64,000 nucleotides of DNA from the sequence record KX130863; one strand, written 5' to 3'. Position numbers and translations under genes: made by a program. Positions 3,078 through 46,721 of this stretch are shown here, piece after piece. This DNA is from Shigella phage SHSML-45. Numbering within the stretch: position 1 is the stretch's first letter; every line of letters begins with the position of its first letter. The notes beneath the pieces are model-generated. The model saw only the letters and a list, made by a program, of their open reading frames with translations, was not told where the DNA came from and made no database searches.

Positions 3078-3083
3078 TAATAA

Positions 3084-3250: not shown

Positions 3251-3259
3251 TGTGGATAA
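3251..3259. promoter_or_regulatory. DnaA-box-like site TGTGGATAA
   Basis: Exact reverse complement of TTATCCACA; embedded in repeated AACCTGTGGATAA. Confidence 0.5.
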
Positions 3260-3323
3260 GTCTGTTGAAAACGCCTCAAAATCGCTAGGGTTTTGTCAAG
3301 TCAAATCGTGCTGTTAATAAACC

Positions 3324-3332
3324 TGTGGATAA
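3324..3332. promoter_or_regulatory. DnaA-box-like site TGTGGATAA (second copy)
   Basis: Same 13-bp context AACCTGTGGATAA, 73 bp from first copy. Confidence 0.5.
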
Positions 3333-3349
3333 CTTAAATAACAGTGTTT

Positions 3350-3510
3350 CTCACTTCCCTTTCTAAATGCGAATCATTCTCAGTATGTGACTCATTCGTA
3401 TTCAACTCTGTAAATGATAACCGTTCTCATTCCCCTTTCTAAACGCGAATCATTATCATTCGCATTCAACTTCTCAAATGCGAATCAATCTCATTATCAT
3501 TCGCATTCAG
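3350..3510. repeat. cluster of short palindromes and direct repeats
   Basis: TCCCTTTCTAAA(T/C)GCGAATCATT occurs twice; GCGAAT..ATTCGC inverted arms repeated. Confidence 0.5.
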
Positions 3511-23046: not shown

Positions 23047-23090
23047 AGAAAAACCCCAGACTACTTATTCAATAGCTGGGGTTTGTTATT
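23047..23090. terminator. bidirectional terminator hairpin
   Basis: CCCCAG-loop-CTGGGG stem flanked by A-run and T-run. Confidence 0.55.
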
Positions 23091-23092: not shown

Positions 23093-23407
23093 TTACAGAT
23101 CGGGGCGTTCATCTTCGAAACAGCCTGAGCTAATTCCTTCTCCGAATCCTACAAAGCCATCAAATTCGTCATTTGAGATGCCCATAATCATTGCTTCCAT
23201 TTTCCTAATCTCCGAGATTTTCATGCCTGCTTTACTATTCTTATAGTACTTGCGAGGGTTCCCACACATCCAACAAGAACAGATGCAAGGAGTAGTAGTG
23301 ATAATACCTAACCGTTTAGGGCTTTCTTCATGTGGGAAGACTGTCCAATACTTTTTGCGATTGTTCTTCACACGTTGCCGGTGATGGCGTCTCAATGCTC
23401 GATCCAC
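23093..23407 (-). CDS. hypothetical Cys-rich protein (104 aa)
   Basis: ORF. Confidence 0.45.
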   Translation of the reverse strand: MDRALRRHHRQRVKNNRKKYWTVFPHEESPKRLGIITTTPCICSCWMCGNPRKYYKNSKAGMKISEIRKMEAMIMGISNDEFDGFVGFGEGISSGCFEDERPDL

Positions 23408-23488: not shown

Positions 23489-23857
23489 TTACATCGCCTG
23501 AGTAAATGTACGACTAATAACGTCGTTCTGTTGTTCACGAGTCAGTGCGTTAAAACGTACAGCGTACCCTGAAACACGGATAGTTAATTGAGGGTATTTT
23601 TCAGGATGTTTCTGTGCATCCAAAAGCTGATCACGACTTAACACATTGACATTTAGGTGCTGACCTCCCTCGATTTGAGGAACTACTTCCACCTTGACTT
23701 CACGGAAGGATTCGGGGTCAAAATGTGGTGTGATACCTTCTAGATCCTCAACCAGAACTTTTTGTTTAAGTTCACCATCTTTAGAGTACAGTTGAATAAT
23801 CTGATTATCATGAACAAGATTAATTACGCCAGACTTAAGATTTTGATATGCTTTCAT
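23489..23857 (-). CDS. GrcA/YfiD-like autonomous glycyl radical protein
   Basis: C-terminal [17 protein letters not shown] glycyl-radical motif; start moved to Met26, which has an AGGAG RBS, because the GTG-extended ORF overlaps the adjacent tRNA. Confidence 0.8.
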
Positions 23858-23870
23858 TAGCTCTCCTGTT

Positions 23871-23946
23871 TGGTAGTTAGTAGTGGATTTGAACCACTGT
23901 AGTCGCTCCGTATGAAGGAGGTGCATAACCACTCTGCCAACTAACT
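23871..23946 (-). tRNA. tRNA-Met (anticodon CAT), CCA encoded
   Basis: Hand fold: 7-bp acceptor, T-arm AGTGG-TTCAAAT-CCACT, anticodon loop TTCATAC. Confidence 0.7.
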
Positions 23947-24042
23947 ATTATGTTTTACTAGGCTAAGTAAGTATTCTTTATACTCTTTAGACCAACTAGC
24001 TTTTTTAAACTTTCCTGGACGCATAGCCTTAATTCCTAGATT

Positions 24043-24119
24043 TGGTACTCCGGGAGGGATTTAAACCCCCGATCTCTCGGTTATCAGCCGAGTGCTTTAG
24101 ATCGCTAAGCTACCGAAGC
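24043..24119 (-). tRNA. tRNA-Ile (anticodon GAT), CCA encoded
   Basis: Hand fold: D-stem GCTT/AAGC, anticodon arm CTCGG-CTGATAA-CCGAG. Confidence 0.7.
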
Positions 24120-24134
24120 ATTAAAATATTTACA

Positions 24135-24425
24135 TCACACACTGTCTAAGTAAGAAGTATAGTGGAATTTAGTTTCTCCAGTATTATCTACTTCTACCTC
24201 AGTTCGTGGTACTTGACGAACCACACCATGAATCATCTTATATCGGATGCCTCTAGCTGGTTCATGATCTTTTGGAAATACTTGTTTAACCGTCACTACT
24301 TTATATTCTTCACGCGGTGTTAGCACTACTACTTGATCACCCTCTTTGATTTTCCAAGAAGATGGAAATTCATAGGTGTATCTTTGACCACCGGTAAGGA
24401 ATATAACAGAAAGATAACGTTTCAT
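24135..24425 (-). CDS. hypothetical protein (96 aa)
   Basis: ORF preceded by conserved promoter and leader. Confidence 0.55.
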   Translation of the reverse strand: MKRYLSVIFLTGGQRYTYEFPSSWKIKEGDQVVVLTPREEYKVVTVKQVFPKDHEPARGIRYKMIHGVVRQVPRTEVEVDNTGETKFHYTSYLDSV

Positions 24426-24455
24426 TTGGTTTCCCTCTCATTAATTTATATAAAT

Positions 24456-24484
24456 ATTATAGCAATAAATAAGAGAGAAAGCAA
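24456..24484 (-). promoter_or_regulatory. sigma70-type early promoter
   Basis: TTGCTT-N17-TATAAT on the minus strand; conserved leader. Confidence 0.55.
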
Positions 24485-24502
24485 ATGAGTTTTTCTTGAA
24501 AT

Positions 24503-24577
24503 TGGTAGCGGGTTCCAGTACTGCCCTGGACTTACTTAGCTTATGAGACTAAGAAGAACTCTATGCCTCCCACCCGC
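24503..24577 (-). tRNA. non-canonical tRNA-like gene, anticodon CAT
   Basis: Anticodon arm TTAGT-CTCATAA-GCTAA, perfect 5-bp T-stem with atypical loop GGCAGTA, CCA encoded; no U8, acceptor has a mismatch. Confidence 0.4.
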
Positions 24578-24831
24578 AATTGTTTGGTCATTCTAGGCAG
24601 GACTCGAACCTGCTATCACTTGTGCGGACTTACGAGAACCATTCTTTCACTCGAATCGAACGAGCTTCTGCCCTCGCCAAGTTGGTTTCCCCATCAACCA
24701 CGCTAGAATGTTAGATTGTTTTCAGTGCAAGAGTCCGAGTCTTGGACACGACCGCTTCGCAAGTACATAGGCAGCTTATCATGAGTCAGCACTTCCGAAT
24801 TGCTAGCTCCGTGTTCTGCACTGAAATTCTG

Positions 24832-25179
24832 TTAGTTTAATCGTAAAGTATTATCTACTTCACCATTAATTGTTCGGCATTCCTCTGGGATTGCCGGGGT
24901 GGCCTTGTATTCCCACCACTCAGCACCATCATATTCCCCACGTTCTAGCCAAGTTCCATCGGCAAACCATACATTACCATAAAGTAATTGTCCACCGTAT
25001 CCAGAATCATATTCAAAGTCTAGGTTATTAAGAAAATCCTCAATGTATTCTTCTGTATAACCTAAAGGTAATACCCAAACTTTTTTATCCCCATAATACC
25101 CGAATTCTATTTTAATACACTTAACTTTAGAATTGGTATTTTTTAAGGCGAGTAACAGCTCTTCTTTAGCATTACGCAT
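24832..25179 (-). CDS. hypothetical protein (115 aa)
   Basis: ORF. Confidence 0.5.
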   Translation of the reverse strand: MRNAKEELLLALKNTNSKVKCIKIEFGYYGDKKVWVLPLGYTEEYIEDFLNNLDFEYDSGYGGQLLYGNVWFADGTWLERGEYDGAEWWEYKATPAIPEECRTINGEVDNTLRLN

Positions 25180-25204
25180 AGTATATTCTCATACTGAATT
25201 ATTT

Positions 25205-25281
25205 TGGCGCGACCGATGGGATTTGAACCCACATTCCCTCCCGTGACAGGGGAGTACCATTACCAAGCCAGCCCCGGTCGC
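25205..25281 (-). tRNA. tRNA-Asp (anticodon GTC), CCA encoded
   Basis: Anticodon arm CTCCC-CTGTCAC-GGGAG; T-loop TTCAAAT. Confidence 0.7.
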
Positions 25282-25290
25282 ATAATTTAT

Positions 25291-25476
25291 TTACTCAGCT
25301 TTGAGTTTTTCAATAGCTGCATTAAGTTCTTTAAGAAACTCTTTTCGTACATTAAGACGATTGAGACTTACTAGTATATCATGTTTAAGTTCTTCGATGT
25401 ATTTCTTCTCAACTTCAATATTGTTGATAGTGCTATCACGATGAACTTCTAGCTGCGCAATCACATTCTTGGACAT
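25291..25476 (-). CDS. hypothetical coiled-coil protein (61 aa)
   Basis: Short ORF between tRNAs. Confidence 0.35.
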   Translation of the reverse strand: MSKNVIAQLEVHRDSTINNIEVEKKYIEELKHDILVSLNRLNVRKEFLKELNAAIEKLKAE

Positions 25477-25503
25477 GCTTGTTTCCTCAGTTATTAATGA
25501 AAA

Positions 25504-25576
25504 TGGTATCTGTGGCTGAATTCGATGTCAGCAATGATAGCTGGTTGGCTACCGGTTTACTTAACTCTACACAGAA
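25504..25576 (-). tRNA. tRNA-like element (anticodon unresolved)
   Basis: Encoded CCA, 7-bp acceptor with one mismatch, GCTGA/TCAGC stem, but anticodon loop of 6 or 8 nt. Confidence 0.3.
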
Positions 25577-25578
25577 TT

Positions 25579-25661
25579 TGGCGGGCCGTGTAGGATTCGA
25601 ACCTACGTTGTCTTTCGACACGGATTAACAATCCGCCGCCAAACCGCTTGGCTAACGACCC
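25579..25661 (-). tRNA. tRNA with anticodon GTT (Asn) and a 13-nt extra arm
   Basis: Acceptor GGGTCGT/ACGGCCC, D-arm GCCA-AGCGGTT-TGGC, T-arm GTAGG-TTCGAAT-CCTAC, variable hairpin TGTC-GAAA-GACA. Confidence 0.55.
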
Positions 25662-25813
25662 TAAATTTATATTGCTGACTAGGATTTTCACCTAGACGGA
25701 GTTAGCACCGTAGCGTGTAGCGGCATACCTCTCCAAACCGTGCCTCATCTTTCAATTACGGAGACAGTGTTCCTACGCGTGCCTGAATTGATTTAACAAT
25801 TCTTTCAGCAAAT

Positions 25814-25889
25814 TGGACGACCGCATGAGATTTGAACTCACATAAAAAGGATTTGCAATCCTTCGCCTAAGCCATTCAGCCAACGGTCG
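25814..25889 (-). tRNA. tRNA-Cys (anticodon GCA), CCA encoded
   Basis: Anticodon arm AAGGA-TTGCAAA-TCCTT; T-loop TTCAAAT. Confidence 0.7.
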
Positions 25890-26067
25890 ATCTATCTTGT
25901 TTTTCGAGATCTTCAAATTCTAGATCATTGAAGTTCCCTAGAGTACGGGTGTAGAACCTATCTCCTGAGTCATAGCCTGATTTACCACAATCATACATTT
26001 TAAATTCACGAAGAGGTGTGAAAATGTGTTCAGAACCACAACACTTAAATCTAACTAATCGTTTCAT
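25876..26067 (-). CDS. hypothetical protein (63 aa)
   Basis: Short ORF; 5-prime end overlaps tRNA-Cys, so start may be internal. Confidence 0.35.
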   Translation of the reverse strand: MKRLVRFKCCGSEHIFTPLREFKMYDCGKSGYDSGDRFYTRTLGNFNDLEFEDLEKQDRSTVG

Positions 26068-26116
26068 TAGCTTCTCCAGTTCAATTTATGTAATTATTAT
26101 ATAGAACTTTTGGAAA

Positions 26117-26395
26117 CTAAGCGACTACATTTTTTAAGAATTTGATGCCTTTCTTTTTCTTCTTATATTTCCACGTTAATGGATTTTGTCGATTATGAGC
26201 GCTTGAGATCTTTGTCTCGTCAAAGTTCTTCAATATCATGTAATCACAGGATAATTGTTCTAGTGGAATGTGATCACCGTCAAAAGCGTATACATAAGGC
26301 TGTTGACTAGCACGATAATGATAGACTTTGTTAATTCTACGTTTCAGCGACTTATCCGCGCAGTAAATAAAGAAGTTTTCAGGATGCATCAGCAT
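26117..26395 (-). CDS. hypothetical protein (92 aa)
   Basis: ORF. Confidence 0.5.
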   Translation of the reverse strand: MLMHPENFFIYCADKSLKRRINKVYHYRASQQPYVYAFDGDHIPLEQLSCDYMILKNFDETKISSAHNRQNPLTWKYKKKKKGIKFLKNVVA

Positions 26396-26405
26396 CTACT
26401 TCAAT

Positions 26406-26489
26406 TTGGTGCATCGTGATGGATTTGAACCACCAACCCCGAAGGGCACGGATTTACAGACCGCTGCAATAGACATTCTGCCAACGATG
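26406..26489 (-). tRNA. tRNA-Tyr (anticodon GTA), long variable arm, CCA encoded
   Basis: 84 nt; variable-arm hairpin CCC-TTCG-GGG; anticodon loop CTGTAAA. Confidence 0.7.
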
Positions 26490-26570
26490 CACATTTAAAA
26501 GTATTCAAATACTAGTTTAAACACTTTTAAATATGTTTCCAAATTAGATAACTATTATACCAAGTTTTAA

Positions 26571-26612
26571 GGCACTGAGCAAGTCAAATTTCGAAGAACT
26601 TGCTCAGTGCTG
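26571..26612. other. perfect 13-bp inverted repeat hairpin
   Basis: GCACTGAGCAAGT-N16-ACTTGCTCAGTGC between a CDS and the tRNA-Tyr promoter region. Confidence 0.6.
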
Positions 26613-26618
26613 TATTAG

Positions 26619-26894
26619 TTAGTCGAACTTAGGAGTGACAGTTAAGGAGAACGGAAGTTCAAAAACTTCTTCCCCCTCATTACTAACTGTAACTACACGA
26701 CCTTTAAGTTCAGACATTAAAATATCAATATCAGCTTTTGCATCTGGAGCCATGCCAGCTTCAACACATTTAGCTTTAACTTCCGGAAGGAGTTCTACAT
26801 CGTAGAAATAAAGCCATTCAATCTCACCTTCCCAGCCTTCCCAGGATTTACAGATTGCACTTTCAATACCAGTTGCTATAACACGATTTTGCAT
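26619..26894 (-). CDS. hypothetical protein (91 aa)
   Basis: ORF preceded by promoter and leader. Confidence 0.5.
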   Translation of the reverse strand: MQNRVIATGIESAICKSWEGWEGEIEWLYFYDVELLPEVKAKCVEAGMAPDAKADIDILMSELKGRVVTVSNEGEEVFELPFSLTVTPKFD

Positions 26895-26924
26895 TCGTTA
26901 ACTCCTTCATCAATTTATATAACT

Positions 26925-26954
26925 ATTATATCAGAAATTTAAAGTAAAAGGCAA
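26925..26954 (-). promoter_or_regulatory. sigma70-type early promoter
   Basis: TTGCCT-N18-TATAAT on the minus strand; conserved leader. Confidence 0.5.
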
Positions 26955-26984
26955 GTACATTTTTAAAAATTCTATTCGGAGGAG

Positions 26985-27191
26985 CTAAACTCCAGATTCT
27001 TCGGCCAAGTCTAGACTAATAAGAGTTATAGCCATAATTGCCGCACCATGTTCTTTTTCCCCGGTGTTTTTAGCAGAGTCTATAATATCCTTAATCTGTT
27101 CGTAATAACTTTTTACTTCTTGTTCAATACCTGCCTCGGCTATCATGCCTTTAGTCATGATTCGTTGCATAGTAATTTCACGGTTAGCCAT
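26985..27191 (-). CDS. hypothetical protein (68 aa)
   Basis: ORF. Confidence 0.45.
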   Translation of the reverse strand: MANREITMQRIMTKGMIAEAGIEQEVKSYYEQIKDIIDSAKNTGEKEHGAAIMAITLISLDLAEESGV

Positions 27192-27365
27192 GATGTTTCT
27201 CCAGCTTCATTTTTAATAGTTTACAAATGAAGTCAACGTCTTCATCTGTGCCTAGATCTCTATCTTCAAGAGTTGCCTTGAAGTTTTTCGTTAGTTCCAT
27301 AAGAACTACTTCTCTAGAACGACGTGTTGGCGGGGGTGGATGTCTATACATCTTATTTCCTTAAT

Positions 27366-27440
27366 TTGGTGGGTCGGAGGAGAATCTAACTCCTACTCGT
27401 TAGCTTATGAGGCCACCGCTTTAACTTTAAGCTACCGACC
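27366..27440 (-). tRNA. tRNA-Met (anticodon CAT; fMet or Ile2 not excluded), CCA encoded
   Basis: Acceptor GGGTCGG/CCGACCC, D-arm GCTT-AAAGTTA-AAGC, anticodon loop CTCATAA, T-arm AGGAG-TTAGATT-CTCCT. Confidence 0.65.
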
Positions 27441-27446
27441 CTATGT

Positions 27447-27535
27447 TTGGCGGAAGAAGGGGGAATCGAACCCACAAGGCTATATTTCAAACCGACAGAT
27501 TAGCAATCTGCTGCAATACCGTTATGCTATTCTTC
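27447..27535 (-). tRNA. tRNA-Ser (anticodon GCT), class II, CCA encoded
   Basis: 89 nt; anticodon arm GCAGA-TTGCTAA-TCTGT; long variable arm. Confidence 0.7.
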
Positions 27536-27557
27536 CGAATTTATAAGATATATTATA

Positions 27558-28076
27558 TTAGAAATTTAGCTTCATGGCAAGAAAATTTTTCAAGTTTTCG
27601 GTAGACATCTCATCCACATCTATAGGAGAAACAAACCCATTTAATTGTCTAGCAAACTTTTCGCCAGCAGGATCATTATCCCCAACAGCTACCAATTTAA
27701 AAGGTAGTAATTTCAATTGCTTTAATAGCGGTTTTCCTGGAGAAGAACCCAACATTGCTAGAGCAGGATACCCAGCATTATGTAATGCTACAGCCTTAAA
27801 TACAGATTCAGCAATTAATACTACTTTTTCATCCCCATTGAGAGTTTCTAGTCCCCATACACACTGTGTAGTAGAATAAGTAAAATATCTAGCTTCAAAG
27901 GGGCACTTACCATGACCTTTTGGAGCAGAAGGATTATAAGTCTGATAGCCTCTCAACATTCCAGAGAAGTCATACAATGGGACTGTTAGCCATCCTTCTG
28001 GGCTTAACCAGCAGTGATATTTATCTGTATCAAACCCTCTAGATAAGAGATGTTCTGTTAGTTCATCAATAGTCAT
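27558..28076 (-). CDS. hypothetical protein with Toprim-like motif (start at internal Met behind the conserved leader)
   Basis: VVLIAESVF..AVGDNDPAG resembles Toprim acidic motifs; leader ATAAATTTGAGAGAGG precedes the ATG. Confidence 0.5.
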   Translation of the reverse strand: MTIDELTEHLLSRGFDTDKYHCWLSPEGWLTVPLYDFSGMLRGYQTYNPSAPKGHGKCPFEARYFTYSTTQCVWGLETLNGDEKVVLIAESVFKAVALHNAGYPALAMLGSSPGKPLLKQLKLLPFKLVAVGDNDPAGEKFARQLNGFVSPIDVDEMSTENLKNFLAMKLNF

Positions 28077-28297
28077 ACTAGATTCCTCTCTCAAATTTAT
28101 AAATATATTATGCAGAGAATTTAGCATTCAAGCAATTGAATTTTTTAACTTTTTAGAGGAAAATCACAGGATGCTTAAGGGTAGCAGGTAAGTGGGTAGA
28201 CCCCAAAATTGTTATCCCCACTTGATTTTCAATGTGATATAGTGTAAAGTATTTGTCATAGCTGAGTGACCAAAGAGACACACTTATCCTCTACCTT

Positions 28298-28337
28298 AAA
28301 ACAGAAAAGCCCTGCGCTCTCCAGGGAACACAGGGCT
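28298..28337 (-). terminator. intrinsic terminator (minus strand)
   Basis: AGCCCTG-loop-CAGGGCT stem followed on the minus strand by TTTTCTGTTTT. Confidence 0.6.
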
Positions 28338-28361
28338 TACTTCGAATATTACGTGTGGGAA

Positions 28362-29309
28362 TTACTTGTTACGCATATCCATAATCATCTGGCCATCGTA
28401 ACCAGTGCCAACTACTGTTTGAGGTACACCGCCTTGATATTTCTGAGCACGAATCATTTCAACTTCTAGTTGTTTCCAGCGAATCATCTCAGGAGTAATA
28501 GTACGTTGCAGAGCGGCGTTAGCTTCGGCTTCCTTCTTAGCTGCGTACAGTTTAGCATCTGCATCACGTTCGTTTGCAATAGCTTGGTTGTTACGAGCTT
28601 CACGATCTGCTTCTGCTTGTTTAACCTTCTGCTGTGCTTCTTGTTCAACACGAGCCAACTCAGCTTTCGCAGCATTAACTTGTTCCTCACGAACTTTGGT
28701 ATTCTGTACCTGTTCCACGATTACAGGCGGCAAAGTAATATCCTGAAGGAACACTTGCTTAACTGTGTAACCATAAGGGCGTGCATACTCTTCAACTTCC
28801 TGTTGAATTGCGGTTTGTAATTGAGCCTGGATTTTAGCATCAAACAAATCTTGTGCTTTAGGAACAGACTTACCGAACTCACGAATAGTGGACAGTAATT
28901 TTTCAGTTACATATTTGTCTAATGCTTGATCCTGGGTACCTGCGTTAATACGGTTAATCGGTGCCTTAGAACCATCAAACTGCAACATAACAGTCAGGTC
29001 AACAGTGGATTTAAACTTATCCTGACTAGGAACCTGAAGTTTATCTAATTTTACAGCAATGTCTTTTGTACTAAAAGTATCGAAAGATGCAAATGGGTTT
29101 ACAAGATGAAAACCAGGTAATACAGGATTAGGGTCTACTTTACCCAGAAATGTTTGGGTTTTAACCGTACCATCAGAAACAATAGTATATGAATTAAAAG
29201 CTAGGATTAAACCTGCTAAACCAACTACAGCACCAATACCCCAACGTTTAATAGTGCGAATTACTTTTTGCTCAGAAGTCAGTTCTTTCATATTTTTAGT
29301 ATTAAACAT
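28362..29309 (-). CDS. SPFH/band-7 (HflK/C-like) membrane protein
   Basis: N-terminal TM helix, SPFH-like core, long Ala/Glu/Gln-rich coiled-coil C-terminus. Confidence 0.65.
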   Translation of the reverse strand: MFNTKNMKELTSEQKVIRTIKRWGIGAVVGLAGLILAFNSYTIVSDGTVKTQTFLGKVDPNPVLPGFHLVNPFASFDTFSTKDIAVKLDKLQVPSQDKFKSTVDLTVMLQFDGSKAPINRINAGTQDQALDKYVTEKLLSTIREFGKSVPKAQDLFDAKIQAQLQTAIQQEVEEYARPYGYTVKQVFLQDITLPPVIVEQVQNTKVREEQVNAAKAELARVEQEAQQKVKQAEADREARNNQAIANERDADAKLYAAKKEAEANAALQRTITPEMIRWKQLEVEMIRAQKYQGGVPQTVVGTGYDGQMIMDMRNK

Positions 29310-29320
29310 ATATTTCCTTA

Positions 29321-29521
29321 TTATTTAGAAGAGTTAGCTACTACAGTTACTTTAGTTGCAGAAATAAACAGGCTAGCATCCACAGCAAATTCAGGAGCTT
29401 TGATATCTCCATTATGAAATATGACTATACCGGAGACTACTTCAAATGCTAGTGCTGTAACATCGGTGGTATTTACTTGTGAATGTTCACCTACTACTTT
29501 TACTATATATCGTGTTTTCAC
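29321..29521 (-). CDS. hypothetical protein (66 aa)
   Basis: ORF. Confidence 0.4.
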   Translation of the reverse strand: MKTRYIVKVVGEHSQVNTTDVTALAFEVVSGIVIFHNGDIKAPEFAVDASLFISATKVTVVANSSK

Positions 29522-29547
29522 TTTATTTTCCTAGCAGTTAATAAAAT

Positions 29548-29622
29548 TGGCCGAGGTGACAGGATTCGAACCTGCATAAAGGAATTTAGAAGACTCCTGC
29601 CTCTCCCTTAGACTACACCCCG
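29548..29622 (-). tRNA. tRNA-Arg (anticodon TCT), CCA encoded
   Basis: Acceptor CGGGGTG/CACCTCG, anticodon arm GGAGT-CTTCTAA-ATTCC, T-arm GCAGG-TTCGAAT-CCTGT. Confidence 0.7.
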
Positions 29623-30123
29623 TTTAAGTATTTTTAAGAACTCTCGTAAAAACTCTTAAAAATACAGACGATACCGGGAGAGTCATAAGTCTCACTCATT
29701 AAGTATTTCAAGACAAAATACAGTAACGTCTATTATTTTCCAGTTTAAGTCAAGGTGACTTAGTGGTTATGTCCTGCGGTATACTGAGGACTCGGTTAGG
29801 TTAGGGTCATGACTCCCCACCTTTTGCTGCTACTCAACAGGAGTTATCGCGAATTACCTGTGCTATTGTGCACCATTAGTGACATCTCTCATGTCAGCAT
29901 TTCCCACTTTGTGGATAGCTTGAAAAACTACTCCGATATGGAGAAAGAACTTCACTATCCTAGAATACCTTCTAAAGTTCTTCTTTAGCCTGGACATAGT
30001 TAAATCGTAATAAAACTATTCAGCAGACTGGTTGGTTAGTCTGGAACCAACTACCGCGTGGTTTAGGCAGTGCGCAACTAACCTCGGAAGCTTTTACGTT
30101 AAAAGCACCAGTTATCCAGTTCT

Positions 30124-30195
30124 TACCGACCGTAGGATTCGAACCTACATCTTCCACCAGTTACGGCTTGATAATACCGTTTATACTAGATCGGC
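30124..30195 (-). tRNA. tRNA-like element (anticodon arm unresolved, CCA not encoded)
   Basis: Canonical T-arm GTAGG-TTCGAAT-CCTAC and acceptor GCCGATC/GGTCGGT with two G-U pairs; no standard anticodon stem found. Confidence 0.35.
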
Positions 30196-30308
30196 AGTGT
30201 TACTACATAAGTGATTTCCACACCCCACTATTTATAAATTAGAGAAGAATTACTCTCTAATTTATGAATATATTATACAGAATTTATAAGCATTTAGCAA
30301 ATGAATTT

Positions 30309-39366: not shown

Positions 39367-42300
39367 TATAACTGACAGCCTCCTGATGCACAGCCTACTG
39401 CTTCTTCACCAGCTCCACCACCATTTTCAGTATTAAAATTAGCATAATACCAAGTTTTTATACCATACTTAACAGCGATCATGAAGTCACGAACTACTAC
39501 TGGGCCTGGAATGATTTCATTCTCGAATTTAGAGTAGTCATAATACGACTGGAAGCTTGAAGACTGATTCAGGAACTTCTGGTAAACAGCATTCCACTTA
39601 ATATACTCTACCCTATCAATGTCATAAGCCAGTTTATAGCTCATTAATGTATCCCAATCAGTTGCACCTGGAGCAATTGCAATTACTTTATTCACTGCAC
39701 TACCCTTGATAGATACGATCTTACGGGGCGGTTCGATAGAGTTAGTAACACCTAGCAGTACAGAGGAACTTTCACCTGGCATCTGAGCAGTCAGAACAGA
39801 GTTGCGCATACCATATTTCAGAATATCTGCACGCAGAGATTCCCAATCCATTTCTAGACCTACAGTTACCAGTTCATCAACAGTTTTCTTGTACGTGTCG
39901 ATTACCAGAGTTCCTTGCGAAGGCTTAGTACGATTAAACCAGTCACATGCACCTTGTTCTTTAGCCAGACGTACAGAGGCTTTATGTAGGAAGTAGGACA
40001 GCTTTTCAGCTTCACGGTGAATCCAGTTACGGGCTTCAACACCTTCGTAAGCCAAACCTTCTGCTGCCATTGCACCTGCTGCGTTCATCAGACCAATACC
40101 AACGTTACGACGTTTCTTAGCCGTGTACTCCATAGTTGGGAATGGGTAATCCTGAATCTCGATGATTGTATCAACGAATTTCAGAAGAATGTAGCAAGTT
40201 TTCTCCCATTCAGCCAGAGATTCCATACGACCTAGTACAACACCACCTAAGTTACACAGAGATACTTCACCAATATCTTCTGGACGCATATCGTCTAACT
40301 GATCTTGGGTCTTATACAGCTCCATAATGTGATGGAATGGACGGGTTGGCTGAGTAATTTCAACACAAAGGTTGGTCATACGAATCGGGTCAAGGAAGTT
40401 ACCATGACGGTTAGATTCACCAATGTGATGAGCATACATACGCCCTGTTTCCATACGGATACGTAACCAAGTATCTAGGATTTCTTTTGCAGAGATTCTA
40501 GGAGCTGCTGGAATTGTTTTTCCTTCGTGGTCGATCTTTGTAAGAGAAGCCACACGTTTCTCCGCTGCCACGTAGATTTCTTCAAACTTAGCCTCATCTT
40601 CGCCATAAAACGCTTCATGAACTTCTGGTGCGTAGAAGTATGACATTAGCGTAATATCTTCATTTTTCAGATAACGTTTTAACAAAAGATTGTTGAAGCT
40701 CAGAGAATAATCCATCTTATCGATTTTATTCTCGTCTGTAGCACGTTGTTGCTTAACCTGCATCAACTGGATGATTTCAGGGTCAAAGTAAGGATAGGAT
40801 ACAGTAGCAGAACCACCACGGCTATTACCACAGACTATGGTATGCCCGTTACGGCGCACTACTAACTTATTGGTGGGTACTTCCACACAATAAACTTTAC
40901 CAATATACTCAACTTCAGTTTCCTTGATACCCTCTGCTGTCATATCTAGTTGGTCAAAATAGACATAGCAACGGTCTTTAGTGCTTGTATTTGAGCGTAA
41001 TCCAGCAATTGCTGCTAGAGCCTGCACCACATGTTGTTGCCCTGCGTGGCTTGAGTATTCTCCAACATTTTCGGATTTCCAGTACCCATCCCACTCCATG
41101 ATTTCTTTCAATGCTTCTTTCGCAGCATTAGATGTTAAATCCTTCTCTAGCAGGAAAGATAAGTCTTTCGAATAGTATAGCTGCCCATGCCCAATATGAA
41201 TGGTAGTTACACCTTGTTCATTTAGCTTCTTAGAATATTTAAGACCTAAATCATCTAGGATATGTACTAAACGATCTACCTTGCGTTGCTTTTTAAATCC
41301 GAAACGATACGCTCTACCTGTATTTGTTTCTACGATTGAACCATCAGCCTGCAATGCAATACGGAAGCGGTCTAGCATGGTGATAGTATCAGTACCATTT
41401 GTTTTCTGCGCTGAACCAAAATCTAGTGCATGGGTTCTTTTTGGTTGCCAATCTTCTGCTAGGATTTTCTGATACCCAGGTTTACGTTGGATATTCTTAT
41501 TATTATACGATACTTGACGGTATACCATAGTATGGTTAGGGGTTACTAGAAGATCTACCCCTCTTTTCTCGAAACGTAACATTGTACCTTCGTAATCATA
41601 CTCGAACACATTAAGAGGTAATACCCATTCTAACCCCCTACTATCAGTAATCTGAGCGACTAACTCATCTCCAGTAAGTTCTGAGAATAACTTCCAACCA
41701 TTCTTAGTTAAGACTTCAGTATCCTCGGAGTAGCACTGTTGGGTATTTGCCTTTACTGAGCGGTCAATGTGTCGATAATATGGCAGTTTTCCGGAATGCG
41801 GGAATGCCCCATTTCGCACCGGATCAGCAATTGATCGGCTTTCAAGATGATACCCGATTCCCGCTCTGGCTGCGACCATTTTGAAGACGATGTGCTCGGC
41901 TGTGTCGATTGAATCCAACGTGTCAGTGGAATCCACGAGGCAGCAACTAGCAAATCCACGGTCACTAGAACGCAAACCAACCAGTGGCGGCGTAGGAACG
42001 TTGATTTTGTGGAGCGACATTGCATTGTAGAGATCGATTGCATCTAGAATTGTCCAGTTGGGTTGAGATAACATCGCCATTGCCATGCCCATATAGGCAA
42101 ATTGCGGGGTTTCGTAAATTTCACCAGTGGCTATATTACGACGGGAATATTTATCAAAGAACTGTTTCAGTCCACCACTAGTAAAAAGACGGTCACGATC
42201 GTGGTCTATAACCTGATTCAGAGCTTCAAATTGCTCATCGGTAATCCATGCACTCATGTCTTCCCATGCACCTACACTAACCATATGATCGTGGAAGAAG

Positions 42301-42608
42301 CGTAGAGAAGGTGGTTCGAAGGAATCATAAAGGCGTTTACGCATCTGCGCAAGACGTAATTCCTTTGCTGGCACGTCGTATGCTGGATTATCTTTAATAA
42401 GACTTTCGGCAGCTTTAATTAACGCATCCATCAGAGTATCGGAATCTACAACCCCTTTAGGCAGAGTTTTTTGAGCAGCCATAGTAATGGCTGACCAACT
42501 TACATCAACTGTTTTGCAGCCATACTCTGCCCAACCATTGAGTTTTTCAGGAGCAAAGTCTTCTACAGTACCGTCACGTTTAATTACTTTTTCAATGCGA
42601 TGGCTCAT
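39366..42608 (-). CDS. nrdA: ribonucleotide reductase class Ia large subunit, intein-containing precursor
   Basis: ATP-cone N-terminus, NLCVEI active-site motif, C-terminal Cys pair; ~300-aa insertion with intein blocks; start set to second Met (RBS AAAGGAAAA) rather than track start 42668. Confidence 0.85.
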   Translation of the reverse strand: MSHRIEKVIKRDGTVEDFAPEKLNGWAEYGCKTVDVSWSAITMAAQKTLPKGVVDSDTLMDALIKAAESLIKDNPAYDVPAKELRLAQMRKRLYDSFEPPSLRFFHDHMVSVGAWEDMSAWITDEQFEALNQVIDHDRDRLFTSGGLKQFFDKYSRRNIATGEIYETPQFAYMGMAMAMLSQPNWTILDAIDLYNAMSLHKINVPTPPLVGLRSSDRGFASCCLVDSTDTLDSIDTAEHIVFKMVAARAGIGYHLESRSIADPVRNGAFPHSGKLPYYRHIDRSVKANTQQCYSEDTEVLTKNGWKLFSELTGDELVAQITDSRGLEWVLPLNVFEYDYEGTMLRFEKRGVDLLVTPNHTMVYRQVSYNNKNIQRKPGYQKILAEDWQPKRTHALDFGSAQKTNGTDTITMLDRFRIALQADGSIVETNTGRAYRFGFKKQRKVDRLVHILDDLGLKYSKKLNEQGVTTIHIGHGQLYYSKDLSFLLEKDLTSNAAKEALKEIMEWDGYWKSENVGEYSSHAGQQHVVQALAAIAGLRSNTSTKDRCYVYFDQLDMTAEGIKETEVEYIGKVYCVEVPTNKLVVRRNGHTIVCGNSRGGSATVSYPYFDPEIIQLMQVKQQRATDENKIDKMDYSLSFNNLLLKRYLKNEDITLMSYFYAPEVHEAFYGEDEAKFEEIYVAAEKRVASLTKIDHEGKTIPAAPRISAKEILDTWLRIRMETGRMYAHHIGESNRHGNFLDPIRMTNLCVEITQPTRPFHHIMELYKTQDQLDDMRPEDIGEVSLCNLGGVVLGRMESLAEWEKTCYILLKFVDTIIEIQDYPFPTMEYTAKKRRNVGIGLMNAAGAMAAEGLAYEGVEARNWIHREAEKLSYFLHKASVRLAKEQGACDWFNRTKPSQGTLVIDTYKKTVDELVTVGLEMDWESLRADILKYGMRNSVLTAQMPGESSSVLLGVTNSIEPPRKIVSIKGSAVNKVIAIAPGATDWDTLMSYKLAYDIDRVEYIKWNAVYQKFLNQSSSFQSYYDYSKFENEIIPGPVVVRDFMIAVKYGIKTWYYANFNTENGGGAGEEAVGCASGGCQL
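40824..41735 (-). mobile_element. intein (304 aa) with LAGLIDADG-type homing endonuclease domain inside nrdA
   Basis: Starts CYSEDTEVLTKNG (block A), TPNH (block B), LAGLIDADG-like ALQADGS, ends ..GN followed by Ser; flanks rejoin to conserved R1 sequence. Confidence 0.65.
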
Positions 42609-42950
42609 TTGGTTTTCCTTTTTATAGTTATCAGGATTTAGGAAATAGTTTACTTTATTCTCAGTCATTTGGCAAATAAAATTTCTGATAGAAAAGGCCC
42701 GAGTATTTTCATACCCAGGCCTCCTGTGTTGTCAGTCTAGTTTTTGGCCACTTAAGTTCTCAGCAGAATATCTATTGAGGTACTTAGTTCATTATAATTG
42801 AAGGGCCGATTTGGATTTGAGGTTACAATTTTCCACGCTAGGGTAGTCTTAGGACTTTCTTCCCCTTCCTTACGTGTAATCATATTAGCAGCACTCAGTG
42901 AAGTACGATGTATTTTAGTTTTACGGTGTAGATGTACGACGTTTCCCATA

Positions 42951-43945: not shown

Positions 43946-43974
43946 TTGACATAGTGGATAATGTTTAGTATAAT
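43946..43974 (+). promoter_or_regulatory. sigma70-type promoter (TTGACA-N17-TATAAT) for the plus-strand block
   Basis: Perfect consensus hexamers with 17-nt spacer. Confidence 0.65.
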
Positions 43975-44002
43975 AGGTGTAAAAATTCTGTGGAGAAGTG
44001 GA

Positions 44003-44866
44003 ATGCCGAAAAAATTAACTCAAGAAGAAGTAGATAAATGCCTAGCCGAGCGTGGTTTTACTATGGTGGATAAGCCATATCAAAATTCTAGGTATAGGCA
44101 TACGTATCAGTGTGAATACGGTCACCAATGGACAGCTAAATTTGACGCTATTAGGAATGGAAAGACCAATTGTCCTACTTGCTCTATTAGTAGCCGTAAA
44201 CTAGATATTGATAAAATTAATACTATATTACAGGACAGAGGTATTACATTGTTGAACGGCTATAAAAATAGTGCCGATATAAATACTAAATTTAGGTGTG
44301 TTTGTGGTCATGAGTGGGCTACTACACTTAATAGTATAATTAATAGAGGTAGTGGCTGCCCATCTTGTGCTGCTAATAAACAGAAACTTAGTGTTAATAC
44401 TATAAATGATCGTCTTGCTGCCAGAAATATCAGAATAGTGGGTGAGTATAGTAATGCGAATACTAAGACCGCCTTTCTTTGTGGTGCAGGGCATAGGTGG
44501 GAAGCTACTCCAGGGTCTGTATTAAGGGGGAACGGTTGTCCTTACTGTAGTTATAGAGATTTAGAAAGTACTAGGATATATGTTATGTATAGCCCCTCAC
44601 ATGGGGTTAAAATAGGTAGGTCTAACAATCCAGAGCGTAGACTTCTACATATTAGATCTAGTAGCCACCTTATTGATTTGGAAATAATTAAAGTATTTGA
44701 AATTGGGGAATATAGTAGTGCAGTTCGAATAGAAAAATTAGCCCATAACTACTTTAAAGAGCAGAATTGCCAGTACAAAGATTTTGACGGCGCTACGGAA
44801 TTCTTCAATATTGAACCAAAAGTAGCTATAAAGTTTATCGAGGAAATAATCAATGACAGAGAATGA
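44003..44866 (+). CDS. zinc-ribbon repeat protein with C-terminal T5orf172/GIY-YIG-like domain
   Basis: Four C-x2-C..CP-x-C repeats then IYVMYSPSHGVKIGRSNNPERR-type domain; start at Met with GGAGAAG RBS. Confidence 0.6.
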   Translation: MPKKLTQEEVDKCLAERGFTMVDKPYQNSRYRHTYQCEYGHQWTAKFDAIRNGKTNCPTCSISSRKLDIDKINTILQDRGITLLNGYKNSADINTKFRCVCGHEWATTLNSIINRGSGCPSCAANKQKLSVNTINDRLAARNIRIVGEYSNANTKTAFLCGAGHRWEATPGSVLRGNGCPYCSYRDLESTRIYVMYSPSHGVKIGRSNNPERRLLHIRSSSHLIDLEIIKVFEIGEYSSAVRIEKLAHNYFKEQNCQYKDFDGATEFFNIEPKVAIKFIEEIINDRE

Positions 44867-46679
44867 ATTAATTGAGAATTGCAAAGGTCTGCTCACTCTA
44901 ACTGCGGATAAGGACTTACAGCATAATAATGCTAATAAGCCTAGTGAGATGTTCCATACTCAAAGAGACTTATTGGCCGGAGAAATCAACAAATATTTAG
45001 TATCGCAGGAATTACCCAAACATCTATTAGACGCCCATAATCTAGGTAAGATACACATTCATGATATGGATTACAGGGCGCAGGGGTACACTAACTGTTG
45101 CTTAGTAGACCTTGGTGGCATGCTGAAGAATGGTACTAAAATTGGTAATGCAAATATTGAAACTCCTAAATCCATAACTACTGCATGTGCAATCACTGCT
45201 CAGATTATTGCCCAAGTATCTGGTGCTCAGTATGGTGGCACCTCTATTGATCGTATCGACGAGGTTCTAGCCCCGTATGTCAGAAAGTCTTACAATAAAC
45301 ATCTGGGTCGTGGGCTACGTTGGCTCAAGGATGAAAGAAAAGCTGCTGTGTATGCTACTGAGCTTACTGAAAAAGAGTGTTATGATGCATTCCAAGCTCT
45401 AGAGTATGAAACTAATTCATTATTTAACTCTAATGGGCAGACCCCTTTTGTTACGCATGGCTTTGGATTAGGTCAGGAGTGGGAGGAAAGGATGATTCAG
45501 AAAGCCATCCTCCAAAATCGTATTAAAGGTTTAGGTGCTGCTGAGTCAACCCCTATCTTCCCTAAACTAGTATTCTCAGTTAAAGAAGGGTTAAATAAAA
45601 ATCCAGGCGATCCTAACTACGATATAAAACAGCTAGCACTTGAGTGTTCTGCTACCCGTATGTACCCAGACTATTTAAGCTATGAGAAAGTTGTAGCTGT
45701 TACTGGTGATTTTAAAGCCCCTATGGGTTGTCGTAGCTTTTTATCTGCTATCCCCTCCGGAGAAATTGCAGGGCGCAATAATTTAGGTGTAGTGTCTATT
45801 AATCTACCTATGGTTGCTGCTGAGGCAGATGGGGTTTTTGAAGATTTCTGGGATATTCTGGACAAATATGTGGATGAGGCTTTTGAAGCTCATGATTTTT
45901 TCTTGGATAGACTTAAGAAAGTGAAGGCTAAACAAGCCCCTATTCTTTATATGCACGGTGGTTTTGGTGTGCGTTTAGATGGGGAAGAGTATGTATGGCC
46001 TATTTTTGAGGGTAGATCTTCTGTATCTCTTGGATACATTGGGGTCTATGAGATGTGCCAAATAATGTTTAGTCTACCACAAACCCATAGGGATTGTATT
46101 GAATTTACAGAAGAAGTTCTTACTCACCTAAAAAATCGTTGCGAAGTTAAAGCTAATGAGACTAATCTTGGATTTAGCTTATACGCTACCCCTAGTGAGT
46201 CTCTATGTAATCGTTTTAATAAATTACTAGAACGTAGATTCCCAGAGTATTCTTGGTTAACAGACAAAGGCTATCTTACTAATAGTCACCATTTGGACGT
46301 AAGAGAGAAGGTAGCCCCAGATACTAAATTTGAGTACGAAGCTCATTTTACCAAAATAGCTAATGGTGGTAATATATCGTTTGTGGAATTACCACAAATG
46401 AAAAAATTCCATAAAGCTCTTGAATACGTAGTAGATAAGGGACTAGAGTGTAGCCATTATATCGGTGTTAATATACCGATTGACGAGTGTTTCAACTGTG
46501 GATATATGGGTGAATCTATTGCCTCTGAGCGTGGGTTTGTATGTCCAAGTTGTGGGTCTGAAGAAATAGAGGTTACACGTAGGGTTTGCGGGTACCTGGG
46601 ATCCCCGGGCAGTAGGCCTTTCAATTCTGGGAAACAAAAAGAAGTGCTTGGTAGAGTAAAACACTTAAATCTTAAGTAA
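44853..46679 (+). CDS. nrdD: anaerobic ribonucleoside-triphosphate reductase (class III)
   Basis: C-terminal zinc ribbon CFNCG..CPSCG and glycyl-radical motif RVCGYLG; 608 aa. Confidence 0.85.
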   Translation: MTENELIENCKGLLTLTADKDLQHNNANKPSEMFHTQRDLLAGEINKYLVSQELPKHLLDAHNLGKIHIHDMDYRAQGYTNCCLVDLGGMLKNGTKIGNANIETPKSITTACAITAQIIAQVSGAQYGGTSIDRIDEVLAPYVRKSYNKHLGRGLRWLKDERKAAVYATELTEKECYDAFQALEYETNSLFNSNGQTPFVTHGFGLGQEWEERMIQKAILQNRIKGLGAAESTPIFPKLVFSVKEGLNKNPGDPNYDIKQLALECSATRMYPDYLSYEKVVAVTGDFKAPMGCRSFLSAIPSGEIAGRNNLGVVSINLPMVAAEADGVFEDFWDILDKYVDEAFEAHDFFLDRLKKVKAKQAPILYMHGGFGVRLDGEEYVWPIFEGRSSVSLGYIGVYEMCQIMFSLPQTHRDCIEFTEEVLTHLKNRCEVKANETNLGFSLYATPSESLCNRFNKLLERRFPEYSWLTDKGYLTNSHHLDVREKVAPDTKFEYEAHFTKIANGGNISFVELPQMKKFHKALEYVVDKGLECSHYIGVNIPIDECFNCGYMGESIASERGFVCPSCGSEEIEVTRRVCGYLGSPGSRPFNSGKQKEVLGRVKHLNLK

Positions 46680-46720: not shown

Positions 46721-46721
46721 T

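What the first reader, a model, noticed from the sequence alone, without database searches (positions are those of the whole stretch)
23489..23857. GrcA-like glycyl-radical spare-part gene, with nrdD lacking an adjacent activase
The product ends in ..[32 protein letters not shown], closely resembling the C-terminal glycyl-radical domain of E. coli GrcA/YfiD. The phage also encodes class III RNR NrdD (44853-46679), but no radical-SAM activase (CxxxCxxC) was recognised in the window. The phage may rely on host activases, and the GrcA-like protein may rescue oxygen-damaged glycyl-radical enzymes. The track ORF uses an upstream GTG that overlaps tRNA-Met; Met26 with an AGGAG RBS is the more plausible start.
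Basis: partly seen in the sequence, partly recalled or inferred. Interest (0 to 1): 0.5.

Follow-up and report, generated by a model that had tools for sequence, protein, structure and literature searches.

The report
Phage copy of GrcA spare-part protein
This T5-like Salmonella phage carries a small, well-conserved copy of the bacterial "spare part" protein GrcA, which repairs oxygen-damaged pyruvate formate-lyase, and an anaerobic ribonucleotide reductase without its activating enzyme; both features are real but were already known from phages T4 and T5.

Summary
Window 23489-23857 (- strand) encodes a 122-aa protein. Its C-terminal 62 residues are 79% identical to the glycyl-radical domain of E. 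coli pyruvate formate-lyase, and residues 49-122 are about 74% identical to E. coli GrcA/YfiD. The RVSGYAV radical loop is intact (Gly97 = PflB Gly734). The ATG start with an AGGAG ribosome-binding site is correct, and the longer GTG ORF overlaps tRNA-Met.

The window is a close relative of Salmonella phage Shivani (Tequintavirus). The gene is the orthologue of T5.056 and of T4 vs.6/Y06I. Y06I was shown in 2001 to be radicalised by host PFL activase and to rescue oxygen-cleaved PFL. Homologues occur in 1584 phage records, and the T5-like copies are under strong purifying selection (dN/dS 0.02-0.2).

No radical-SAM activase is found in the window or in the complete Shivani genome. Record counts show that T5-like phages in general carry nrdD without nrdG, which was already reported in 2013. 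NrdD is intact. Its glycyl-radical segment is unusually host-like (about 80% identity against about 52% elsewhere), consistent with activation by host NrdG.

Verdict: a correct reading of an already known feature, of low novelty.

The parts
23489..23857 (-). GrcA-like autonomous glycyl-radical protein, 122 aa. Radical glycine is Gly97 in RVSGYAV. Orthologue of T5.056, Shivani gp058 and T4 vs.6 (Y06I).
   Evidence: dN/dS 0.02-0.2; the C-terminal half superposes on YfiD and PFL.
23863..23867 (-). Shine-Dalgarno AGGAG, 5 nt upstream of the ATG at 23857.
   Evidence: Sequence read directly. The same site is annotated as the RBS in Shivani.
23871..23946 (-). tRNA-Met (CAU). Its 3' end lies 13 nt upstream of the GrcA-like start codon, so the tRNA and the mRNA are on one transcript.
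   Evidence: ARAGORN and Rfam tRNA at 51.5 bits. T5 has the same layout.
24043..24119 (-). tRNA-Ile (GAU), upstream member of the same early tRNA/ORF transcription unit.
   Evidence: Synteny with T5 and BF23.
23093..23407 (-). 104-aa basic, Cys-rich ORF (T5.055 homologue) co-transcribed downstream of the GrcA-like gene. It contains the motif C-x-C-x-C-x2-C and is not an activase.
   Evidence: It is restricted to T5-like phages, has no Pfam or NCBIfam hit, and is too short for a radical-SAM core. The first Cys is not universally conserved.
23047..23082 (-). Intrinsic terminator-like hairpin (ACCCCAG...CTGGGGT followed by a T run) that closes the unit.
   Evidence: Sequence read. A terminator is annotated at the same place in Shivani, BF23 and T5. 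The simple scan missed it because the loop is 16 nt.
44853..46679 (+). Class III (anaerobic) ribonucleotide reductase NrdD, 608 aa, without an ATP-cone. Catalytic residues are C82, M291, C293, N310 and G580, with a Zn ribbon at C546/C549/C564/C567.

Best explanation
The ORF is a phage-encoded GrcA/YfiD-type spare-part protein, expressed from the early tRNA-rich region of a T5-like phage.

Inferred mechanism, by analogy with E. coli YfiD and T4 Y06I:
- The host's pre-existing pyruvate formate-lyase activase (PflA, a radical-SAM enzyme) abstracts a hydrogen from Gly97 in the RVSGYAV loop.
- The radical-bearing 14-kDa protein docks onto host PFL whose own C-terminal glycyl-radical domain has been cleaved by oxygen at Gly734.
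- This restores conversion of pyruvate to acetyl-CoA and formate in microaerobic infected cells.

The phage plausibly encodes its own copy because a T5-type infection destroys host DNA, so the host can no longer induce grcA.

The phage NrdD is an intact glycyl-radical ribonucleotide reductase of the E. coli/T4 formate-using type. The phage has no activase gene, so NrdD must be radicalised by host NrdG.

A further inferred link is that rescued PFL supplies the formate that this type of NrdD uses as reductant, so both genes would serve phage DNA synthesis at low oxygen.

Shown here: sequence, domain and fold identity; conservation and purifying selection; absence of activase genes; intact catalytic residues. 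Inferred: activation by host PflA and NrdG, rescue of PFL, and the formate coupling.
For: Domain and family: Pfam Gly_radical at 66 bits. The best NCBIfam model is GrcA TIGR04365, E 3.4e-35. The best PDB match is YfiD 6owr, E 2.5e-30, followed by the PflB C-terminus at 79% identity over 62 aa.

Conservation: 43 invariant columns from E63 to T119, including RVSGYAV, across phage GrcA-likes, bacterial GrcA and PflB.

Structure: in the AF2 model (pLDDT 79) the C-terminal half matches YfiD and PFL crystal structures, at 2.6 A over 50 columns.

Link to the validated phage protein: full-length homology to T4 vs.6/Y06I. Y06I, like YfiD, is activated by PFL-AE and restores oxygen-cleaved PFL (PMC8683613 citing Wagner 2001).

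Functional gene: dN/dS is 0.02-0.2 among five T5-like phages, and also below 0.2 in the N-terminal half. The gene is present in 1584 phage records.

No activase. Record counts are NrdD 2909 against NrdG 2273. The Salmonella, Escherichia and Klebsiella differences (273, 128, 81) match the numbers of T5-like records (272, 131, 79). Dwivedi 2013 reports the same pattern.

NrdD: all catalytic and Zn residues are intact, including the PMGC Met/Cys of the E. coli enzyme. The 31-aa glycyl-radical segment is 81% identical to E. coli NrdD in the window allele and 77% in the T5 allele, against 51-53% elsewhere. T4 NrdD, whose phage has its own NrdG, shows 58% in that segment and 58.8% elsewhere.
Against: No experiment exists on any T5-group protein. 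The score is below the NCBIfam GrcA equivalog cut-off (121 against 170), and the HMM aligns only residues 50-122.

The T5-group N-terminal half differs from those of bacterial GrcA and T4 vs.6. It is predicted to be an ordered beta-meander, whereas the YfiD N-terminus is disordered yet needed for activation. Regulation or partner choice could therefore differ.

The host-like NrdD segment is only 31 residues and rests on three phage alleles (Fisher p about 0.05 for the window against T4).

The formate-coupling idea is not supported by any direct data. Many phages with NrdD lack a GrcA-like gene, for example Vibrio phages.

The window's own genome outside the 64 kb could not be inspected. The activase search outside the window used the 97-100% identical Shivani genome.
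Confidence: 0.8

Rival explanations
1. The protein is a decoy or competitor rather than a repair part. By presenting a perfect RVSGYAV substrate loop, it would soak up host PflA activity or bind intact PFL, and so re-route or throttle host fermentation for the phage's benefit.
For: The PflA recognition loop is identical to that of PflB. The T5-group N-terminal half differs from bacterial GrcA and is predicted to be ordered. The N-terminus controls activation in YfiD.
Against: The closest characterised homologue, T4 Y06I, restores PFL activity rather than inhibiting it. All residues that pack the glycyl-radical domain into PFL are invariant, which a mere PflA decoy would not need.
Confidence: 0.07
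2. It is a spare part for a glycyl-radical enzyme other than PflB. Candidates are host TdcE or other PFL-family enzymes, or the phage's own oxygen-cleaved NrdD.
For: Reviews note that spare parts for other glycyl-radical enzymes are conceivable. The gene co-occurs with nrdD in both the T4-like and T5-like lineages.
Against: The C-terminal 62 aa are 79% identical to PflB. Scores against other glycyl-radical enzyme families are far lower, at 54 bits or less against 86-121 bits. The glycyl-radical region of NrdD has a different sequence (RRVCGYLG) and an adjoining Zn ribbon that this protein lacks. TdcE cannot be excluded, because it was not compared here.
Confidence: 0.08
3. It is a decaying fragment of a captured host pflB or grcA gene with no function in the phage.
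For: It equals only the C-terminal domain of a 760-aa enzyme. GenBank names are vague or wrong ('acetyltransferase', 'pyruvate formate-lyase').
Against: dN/dS is 0.02-0.2 at dS up to 0.6. The ORF is intact, with an RBS, in about 435 T5-like and more than 1000 T4-like and jumbo-phage records. The same N-terminus (MKAYQ...) is shared by T4 and T5 lineages.
Confidence: 0.02

Closest known systems
Bacteriophage T4 vs.6 / Y06I (autonomous glycyl radical cofactor)
   Same: The two are homologous over their full length: 120 and 122 aa, 53% identity over 100% of the query, and the same MKAYQ start. The region from [11 protein letters not shown] to RTFT is near-identical and contains RVSGYAV. Both are phage-encoded, both phages also carry nrdD, and both score below the TIGR04365 cut-off.
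   Different: The N-terminal 60 residues are divergent. The T5-group form has its own insertion ([14 protein letters not shown]) and a lower GrcA HMM score (121 against 151 bits). T4 carries its own nrdG, and this phage does not. Only the T4 protein has been tested biochemically.
E. coli GrcA / YfiD (PDB 6owr; TIGR04365)
   Same: Both are stand-alone proteins of about 14 kDa. Identity is 74% over residues 49-122, and the fold of the glycyl-radical domain is the same. The presumed activase is the same (PflA).
   Different: The N-terminal half aligns only weakly to E. coli GrcA, although some Vibrio GrcAs align over 86% of the query. The score is below the equivalog cut-off. This protein is phage-encoded and is transcribed with tRNAs.
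E. coli PflB C-terminal glycyl-radical domain (residues 699-760; PDB 2pfl, 1h16)
   Same: 79% identity over 62 aa. Gly97 corresponds to Gly734.
   Different: The phage protein lacks the 700-residue catalytic barrel and its Cys418/Cys419 active site, so it cannot be a formate acetyltransferase on its own. The GenBank names 'pyruvate formate-lyase' and 'acetyltransferase' are therefore misnomers.
T5 T5.056 and nrdD (T5.099): the nrdD-only RNR arrangement of T5-like phages (Dwivedi et al. 2013)
   Same: Gene order is the same: tRNA-Ile, tRNA-Met, the GrcA-like gene, a T5.055-like gene, then a terminator. The order nrdB, nrdA, phoH, nrdD is also shared, and neither has nrdG.
   Different: The window's NrdD allele is only about 62% identical to T5 NrdD. 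It is preceded by a T5orf172-type endonuclease ORF that T5 lacks at that position.

Membership tests
GrcA/YfiD autonomous glycyl-radical cofactor (TIGR04365, IPR011140) | Small stand-alone protein (about 120-130 aa) consisting essentially of a PFL-type glycyl-radical domain | tested here: met
   122 aa. Pfam Gly_radical covers residues 62-103. There is no other domain.
GrcA/YfiD autonomous glycyl-radical cofactor (TIGR04365, IPR011140) | Conserved radical glycine in the RVSGYAV loop, with flanking PFL-like residues | tested here: met
   Gly97 lies in [11 protein letters not shown]. There are 43 invariant columns shared with GrcA and PflB.
GrcA/YfiD autonomous glycyl-radical cofactor (TIGR04365, IPR011140) | Score at or above the curated equivalog cut-off (170 bits) | tested here: not met
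   121.1 bits, aligned only over residues 50-122. The validated phage member T4 vs.6 also fails (151.1 bits), so the cut-off is tuned to bacterial GrcA and does not decide the matter.
GrcA/YfiD autonomous glycyl-radical cofactor (TIGR04365, IPR011140) | N-terminal region homologous to that of GrcA (needed for activation in YfiD) | tested here: inconclusive
   Some Vibrio and Aliivibrio GrcAs align over 82-86% of the query. The multiple alignment shows only sparse conservation before residue 50. The region is predicted to form beta-strands, whereas it is disordered in YfiD.
GrcA/YfiD autonomous glycyl-radical cofactor (TIGR04365, IPR011140) | Radicalised by PFL activase, and restores activity to oxygen-cleaved PFL | not testable with these tools
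   Known only for YfiD and T4 Y06I.
Phage GrcA-like family (PHROG 1209; T4 vs.6 / T5.056) | Full-length match to the phage family profile | tested here: met
   PHROG 1209 at 162 bits, residues 1-122 against profile positions 1-121 of 121. tblastn shows 100% coverage in T4-like phages.
Class III ribonucleotide reductase NrdD | Score above curated cut-offs, and catalytic Cys/Cys/Asn/Gly plus Zn-ribbon cysteines present | tested here: met
   NF006732 at 790 bits against 657, and TIGR02487 at 534 against 326. C82, C293, N310, G580, M291 and C546/549/564/567 are all present.
Class III ribonucleotide reductase system (NrdD + NrdG) | Cognate radical-SAM activase NrdG encoded with NrdD | tested here: not met
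   No CX3CX2C-bearing ORF of suitable size was found. There is no significant tblastn hit for E. coli or T4 NrdG or for PflA in the window or in the whole Shivani genome (best E 0.019, in an out-of-frame 25-aa stretch). None is annotated.
Glycyl-radical-enzyme activase (radical SAM; PflA/NrdG) | Whether the adjacent 104-aa Cys-rich ORF (23093-23407) is an activase: a CX3CX2C cluster within a radical-SAM core of at least about 150 aa | tested here: not met
   It is 104 aa with no Pfam or NCBIfam hit even at E<=1-10. The conserved cysteines form CxCxxC, and the first Cys is absent in one homologue. The family is confined to T5-like phages.

The most novel reading that the evidence does not exclude
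The phage GrcA-like protein and the activase-less, formate-type NrdD may form one functional module that exploits two host radical-SAM activases. Host PflA would arm the phage spare part, which would keep PFL making formate under microaerobic stress. That formate would be the reductant for phage NrdD, whose glycyl-radical segment has converged on the host sequence so that host NrdG can arm it. In this reading, the ordered, T5-specific N-terminal beta-domain of the spare part, which is under purifying selection, would tune when or where it is activated.
Probability: 0.25. Interest if true: 0.45.

Novelty: already known. Interest (0 to 1): 0.2.

Why it matters
The finding adds little to what is already known. 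It shows that a T5-like phage carries an auxiliary metabolic gene that props up host anaerobic energy and formate metabolism, and that the phage depends on two host radical-SAM activases that it does not encode.

Three practical points follow.
- Common GenBank names for this gene ('acetyltransferase', 'pyruvate formate-lyase', 'ribonucleotide reductase subunit') are misleading. It should be named an autonomous glycyl-radical cofactor (GrcA-like).
- T5-like phages would be a clean system for testing host-activase dependence (pflA or nrdG hosts) and the value of spare-part proteins in the microaerobic gut. This is relevant to the use of these phages against Salmonella and E. coli.
- The host-like glycyl-radical segment of NrdD in activase-less phages is a small, testable example of a phage enzyme matching a host maturation factor.

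Tried and rejected
1. A hidden activase. The six-frame CX3CX2C scan of the window and the whole Shivani genome found only a 45-aa non-coding segment and the 104-aa ORF next to the GrcA-like gene. That ORF was followed up with Pfam, NCBIfam, PHROG, a homologue search and an alignment. It was rejected as an activase because it is too short, has no radical-SAM signature, and its conserved cysteines form CxCxxC. It looks like a basic Zn-knuckle protein specific to T5-like phages.

2. An nrdG remnant downstream of nrdD. The 93-aa ORF at 46779-47060 shares a 22-aa stretch with NrdG residues 87-108. Pairwise E was 2e-4 against E. coli NrdG and 0.026 against T4 NrdG, but only 0.37 in the genome-wide search. 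Gapless spacing to a GG dipeptide also matches. However, Pfam and NCBIfam NrdG models give nothing at E<=1-10, and PDB hits are chance. This is left as an unproven curiosity, with an estimated chance of about 15%.

3. Finding the exact source genome. The window is 96-100% identical to Shivani but not identical, and no exact record is in the phage collection. The search for elements outside the window therefore used Shivani as a proxy.

4. Simple promoter and terminator scans gave nothing above background. The terminator was found by reading the sequence and by synteny instead.

5. Literature searches for T5-specific work on this gene found none.

6. The last homologous-protein search, the representative-protein search, and the metagenome and genome contig scans were not used, because the answer did not depend on them.

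Full report
**Source of the window.** The window is a T5-like phage (Demerecviridae, Tequintavirus). The region around the finding is 100% identical to Salmonella phage Shivani (NC_028754/KP143763) and to vB_SLGBLB0002. Over its whole length the window is only 96-99.3% identical to Shivani, and no exact source record is in the phage collection. Where whole-genome statements were needed, I used the complete Shivani genome as the closest proxy.

**The observation.**
- On the minus strand, 23489-23857 encodes a 122-aa protein.
- The mechanical ORF list starts it at a GTG at 23932, which lies inside tRNA-Met (23871-23946, minus strand; ARAGORN, Rfam).
- The ATG at 23857 is preceded by AGGAG (23863-23867) with a 5-nt spacer. 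The Shivani, BF23, T5, slur09, SH9 and SE8 records use this start. T4 vs.6 begins with the same MKAYQ.
- The protein matches Pfam Gly_radical at 66 bits against a cut-off of 22. Its best NCBIfam model is GrcA TIGR04365, at E 3.4e-35. It matches PHROG 1209 over its full length.
- Its best solved-structure matches are YfiD/GrcA (6owr, E 2.5e-30) and the C-terminus of PflB (E 5.8e-27).
- By tblastn, the C-terminal 62 residues are 79% identical to E. coli PflB residues 699-760, and residues 49-122 are 74% identical to E. coli GrcA.
- In a 14-sequence alignment of T5-like, T4-like and jumbo-phage homologues, bacterial GrcAs and PflB, 43 columns between E63 and T119 are invariant. These include [11 protein letters not shown]. 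Gly97 corresponds to PflB Gly734.
- An AlphaFold2 model built on 97 homologues (pLDDT 79) has a C-terminal half that matches YfiD and PFL crystal structures, at 2.6 A over 50 columns and 76% identity. The N-terminal half is predicted to be a four-stranded beta-meander with no significant structural match.

**Is it a working gene?**
- tblastn finds it in 1584 phage records. About 435 are T5-like (above 80% identity) and more than 1000 are T4-like, Klebsiella, Enterobacter, Aeromonas or jumbo phages (52-70% identity). Most matches cover the whole query.
- Among five T5-like phages, dS reaches 0.2-0.6 while dN/dS is 0.02-0.2. The N-terminal half, taken alone, is also constrained (0.05-0.2).
- In T5 and BF23 the annotated layout is a promoter (P11 in T5), a T5.058-like ORF, tRNA-Ile, tRNA-Met, the GrcA-like gene, a T5.055-like ORF, then a rho-independent terminator.
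- The window has the same order. A terminator-like hairpin (ACCCCAG...CTGGGGT followed by a T run) lies at about 23047-23082 on the minus strand.
- The gene is thus part of an early tRNA-rich transcription unit.

**What is already known.**
- T4 vs.6 is the protein called Y06I. RefSeq names it 'autonomous glycyl radical cofactor GrcA'.
- According to Andorfer et al. 2021 (PMC8683613), citing Wagner et al. 2001, both E. coli YfiD and T4 Y06I receive a glycyl radical from PFL activase, bind oxygen-cleaved PFL and restore its activity. These two are the only validated spare parts. A 2026 review repeats this.
- The window protein is homologous to T4 vs.6 over its full length (53% identity). T4 vs.6 also scores below the TIGR04365 cut-off (151 against 170 bits). 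The window protein's failure to reach that cut-off (121 bits) therefore does not count against a GrcA-like role.
- T5's orthologue, T5.056, was annotated from the glycine-radical InterPro domain. Many recent records already call the T5-like gene grcA. The names 'acetyltransferase' and 'pyruvate formate-lyase' are misnomers for a 122-aa protein that lacks the catalytic barrel.

**The missing activase.**
- A six-frame scan for CX3CX2C in the window and in the full Shivani genome gives two hits. One is a 45-aa non-coding segment. The other is the 104-aa ORF immediately downstream of the GrcA-like gene.
- tblastn with E. coli NrdG, T4 NrdG and E. coli PflA against the whole Shivani genome gives only short, out-of-frame, non-significant matches (best E 0.019 over 25 aa). 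The T5 36-kb region also gives none.
- No activase is annotated in Shivani or around T5 nrdD.
- Across the phage collection, NrdD is found in 2909 records and NrdG in 2273. The differences by host genus are Salmonella 399-126=273, Escherichia 1056-928=128 and Klebsiella 346-265=81. These match the numbers of T5-like records (272, 131, 79).
- Dwivedi et al. 2013 had already noted that many phages, including T5, SPC35 and EPS7, carry nrdD with nrdAB but without nrdG.
- I tested the adjacent 104-aa Cys-rich ORF specifically. It has no Pfam or NCBIfam hit and is confined to T5-like phages. Its conserved cysteines form CxCxxC within a very basic sequence, and it is too short for a radical-SAM core. 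It is not an activase.

**NrdD itself.**
- The 608-aa protein passes the curated NrdD cut-offs and lacks the N-terminal ATP-cone, as T4 NrdD does.
- It retains C82, M291, C293, N310 and G580, and the four Zn-ribbon cysteines. These are equivalent to E. coli C175, M382, C384, G681 and C644/647/662/665, and to T4 C79, C290, N311 and G580. The PMGC motif is that of the E. coli and T4 enzymes, which use formate as reductant (established knowledge).
- The final 31-residue glycyl-radical segment is 25/31 (81%) identical to E. coli NrdD, against 51% for the rest of the protein.
- The T5 allele is only 62% identical to the window's allele, yet it shows the same pattern (77% against 53%).
- T4 NrdD, whose phage encodes its own NrdG, shows no such excess (58% against 58.8%).
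- This is modest evidence: a binomial test of the window's 25/31 against its overall 52.7% identity gives p about 0.001, and Fisher's test against T4 gives p about 0.05. It is consistent with activation by host NrdG.

**Mechanism proposed.**
- Shown: a conserved, selected, PFL-type stand-alone glycyl-radical protein; an intact NrdD; no phage activase.
- Inferred: host PflA radicalises Gly97, and the protein replaces the cleaved C-terminal domain of oxygen-damaged host PFL, as Y06I and YfiD do. Host NrdG radicalises phage NrdD.
- A phage copy makes sense because T5-type infection destroys host DNA (established knowledge of T5 biology), so host grcA could not be induced after infection.
- A further, untested inference is that sustaining PFL secures formate, the reductant for this NrdD type. 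That would link the two genes.

**Rivals.**
- A PflA decoy or PFL inhibitor.
- A spare part for another glycyl-radical enzyme, or for NrdD.
- A decaying gene fragment.

These are respectively disfavoured by the Y06I precedent and the invariant packing residues, by the much higher similarity to PflB than to other glycyl-radical enzymes together with the different NrdD radical domain, and by the selection data.

**Verdict.** The finding and its interpretation are correct, but they describe a feature already known from T4 (experimentally) and T5 (by annotation and comparative genomics). Novelty is 'already known', and interest is low (0.2). The most novel reading still open is a coupled module of PflA, spare part, PFL, formate and NrdD with host-matched activation. 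I give that about a 25% chance.

Noticed in passing
window 46779-47060 (+): A 93-aa ORF lies directly downstream of nrdD (Shivani gp139, PHROG 7953, unknown function). It shares a 22-aa stretch, KKVKKFRVHYVGKDKWLWIDYE, with NrdG residues 87-108. Pairwise E is 2e-4 against E. coli NrdG and 0.026 against T4 NrdG, but only 0.37 in the genome-wide search. The spacing to an upstream GG dipeptide also matches NrdG. It may be a remnant of a lost nrdG at the syntenic position, but Pfam and NCBIfam profiles give no support.
   Followed up: partly
window 23093-23407 (-): A 104-aa, very basic, Cys-rich ORF (T5.055 homologue) is co-transcribed with the GrcA-like gene. It carries the motif TPCxCSCWMCGNPRK, the only in-ORF CX3CX2C in the genome. 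It is confined to T5-like phages, has no known domain, and is likely a small Zn-knuckle protein. Some phages carry only a 58-aa C-terminal version.
   Followed up: yes
window 44853-46679 (+) and 43961-44866 (+): The window's NrdD allele is only about 60-62% identical in protein to the NrdD of T5 and most T5-like phages. 49 records have 95% identity or more, and 479 have 60-80%. Yet the surrounding genome is 90-95% identical in DNA. A 301-aa T5orf172/MUG113-type endonuclease ORF with treble-clef zinc fingers overlaps the nrdD start by 14 nt and is absent at that position in T5. This suggests allele replacement driven by a homing endonuclease.
   Followed up: partly
window 23871-30196 (tRNA cluster); Shivani record NC_028754 30476-36227: The Shivani record annotates its tRNA genes on the + strand. 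ARAGORN and Rfam place all ten tRNAs of the window on the - strand, co-oriented with the early genes, as in T5. This is a strand error in the deposited annotation.
   Followed up: yes
window 23858-23870, compared with L011 (slur09) 183-600 and L010 (SH9) 229-600: In the window, Shivani, BF23 and T5, tRNA-Met ends 13 nt before the GrcA-like start codon. In slur09 and SH9 about 370-420 nt intervene, including a 195-bp ORF in slur09. In SH9 the tRNA is annotated as a pseudo-tRNA. This junction is therefore an indel hotspot.
   Followed up: no
L012 (MG969413.1, Salmonella phage GE_vB_N8, UNVERIFIED) 3001-3360: A record classified as Tequintavirus carries a GrcA-like gene only 59% identical to the T5-group form, closer to the T4 or jumbo-phage type. 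This may reflect a mixed assembly or a gene replacement. I did not examine it.
   Followed up: no
Shivani record 45972-49214 (window about 39367-42609, - strand): nrdA is annotated as containing an intein (3243 bp against 2436 bp in T5). An HNH homing endonuclease lies between nrdA and nrdB. The whole RNR region is rich in mobile elements.
   Followed up: no
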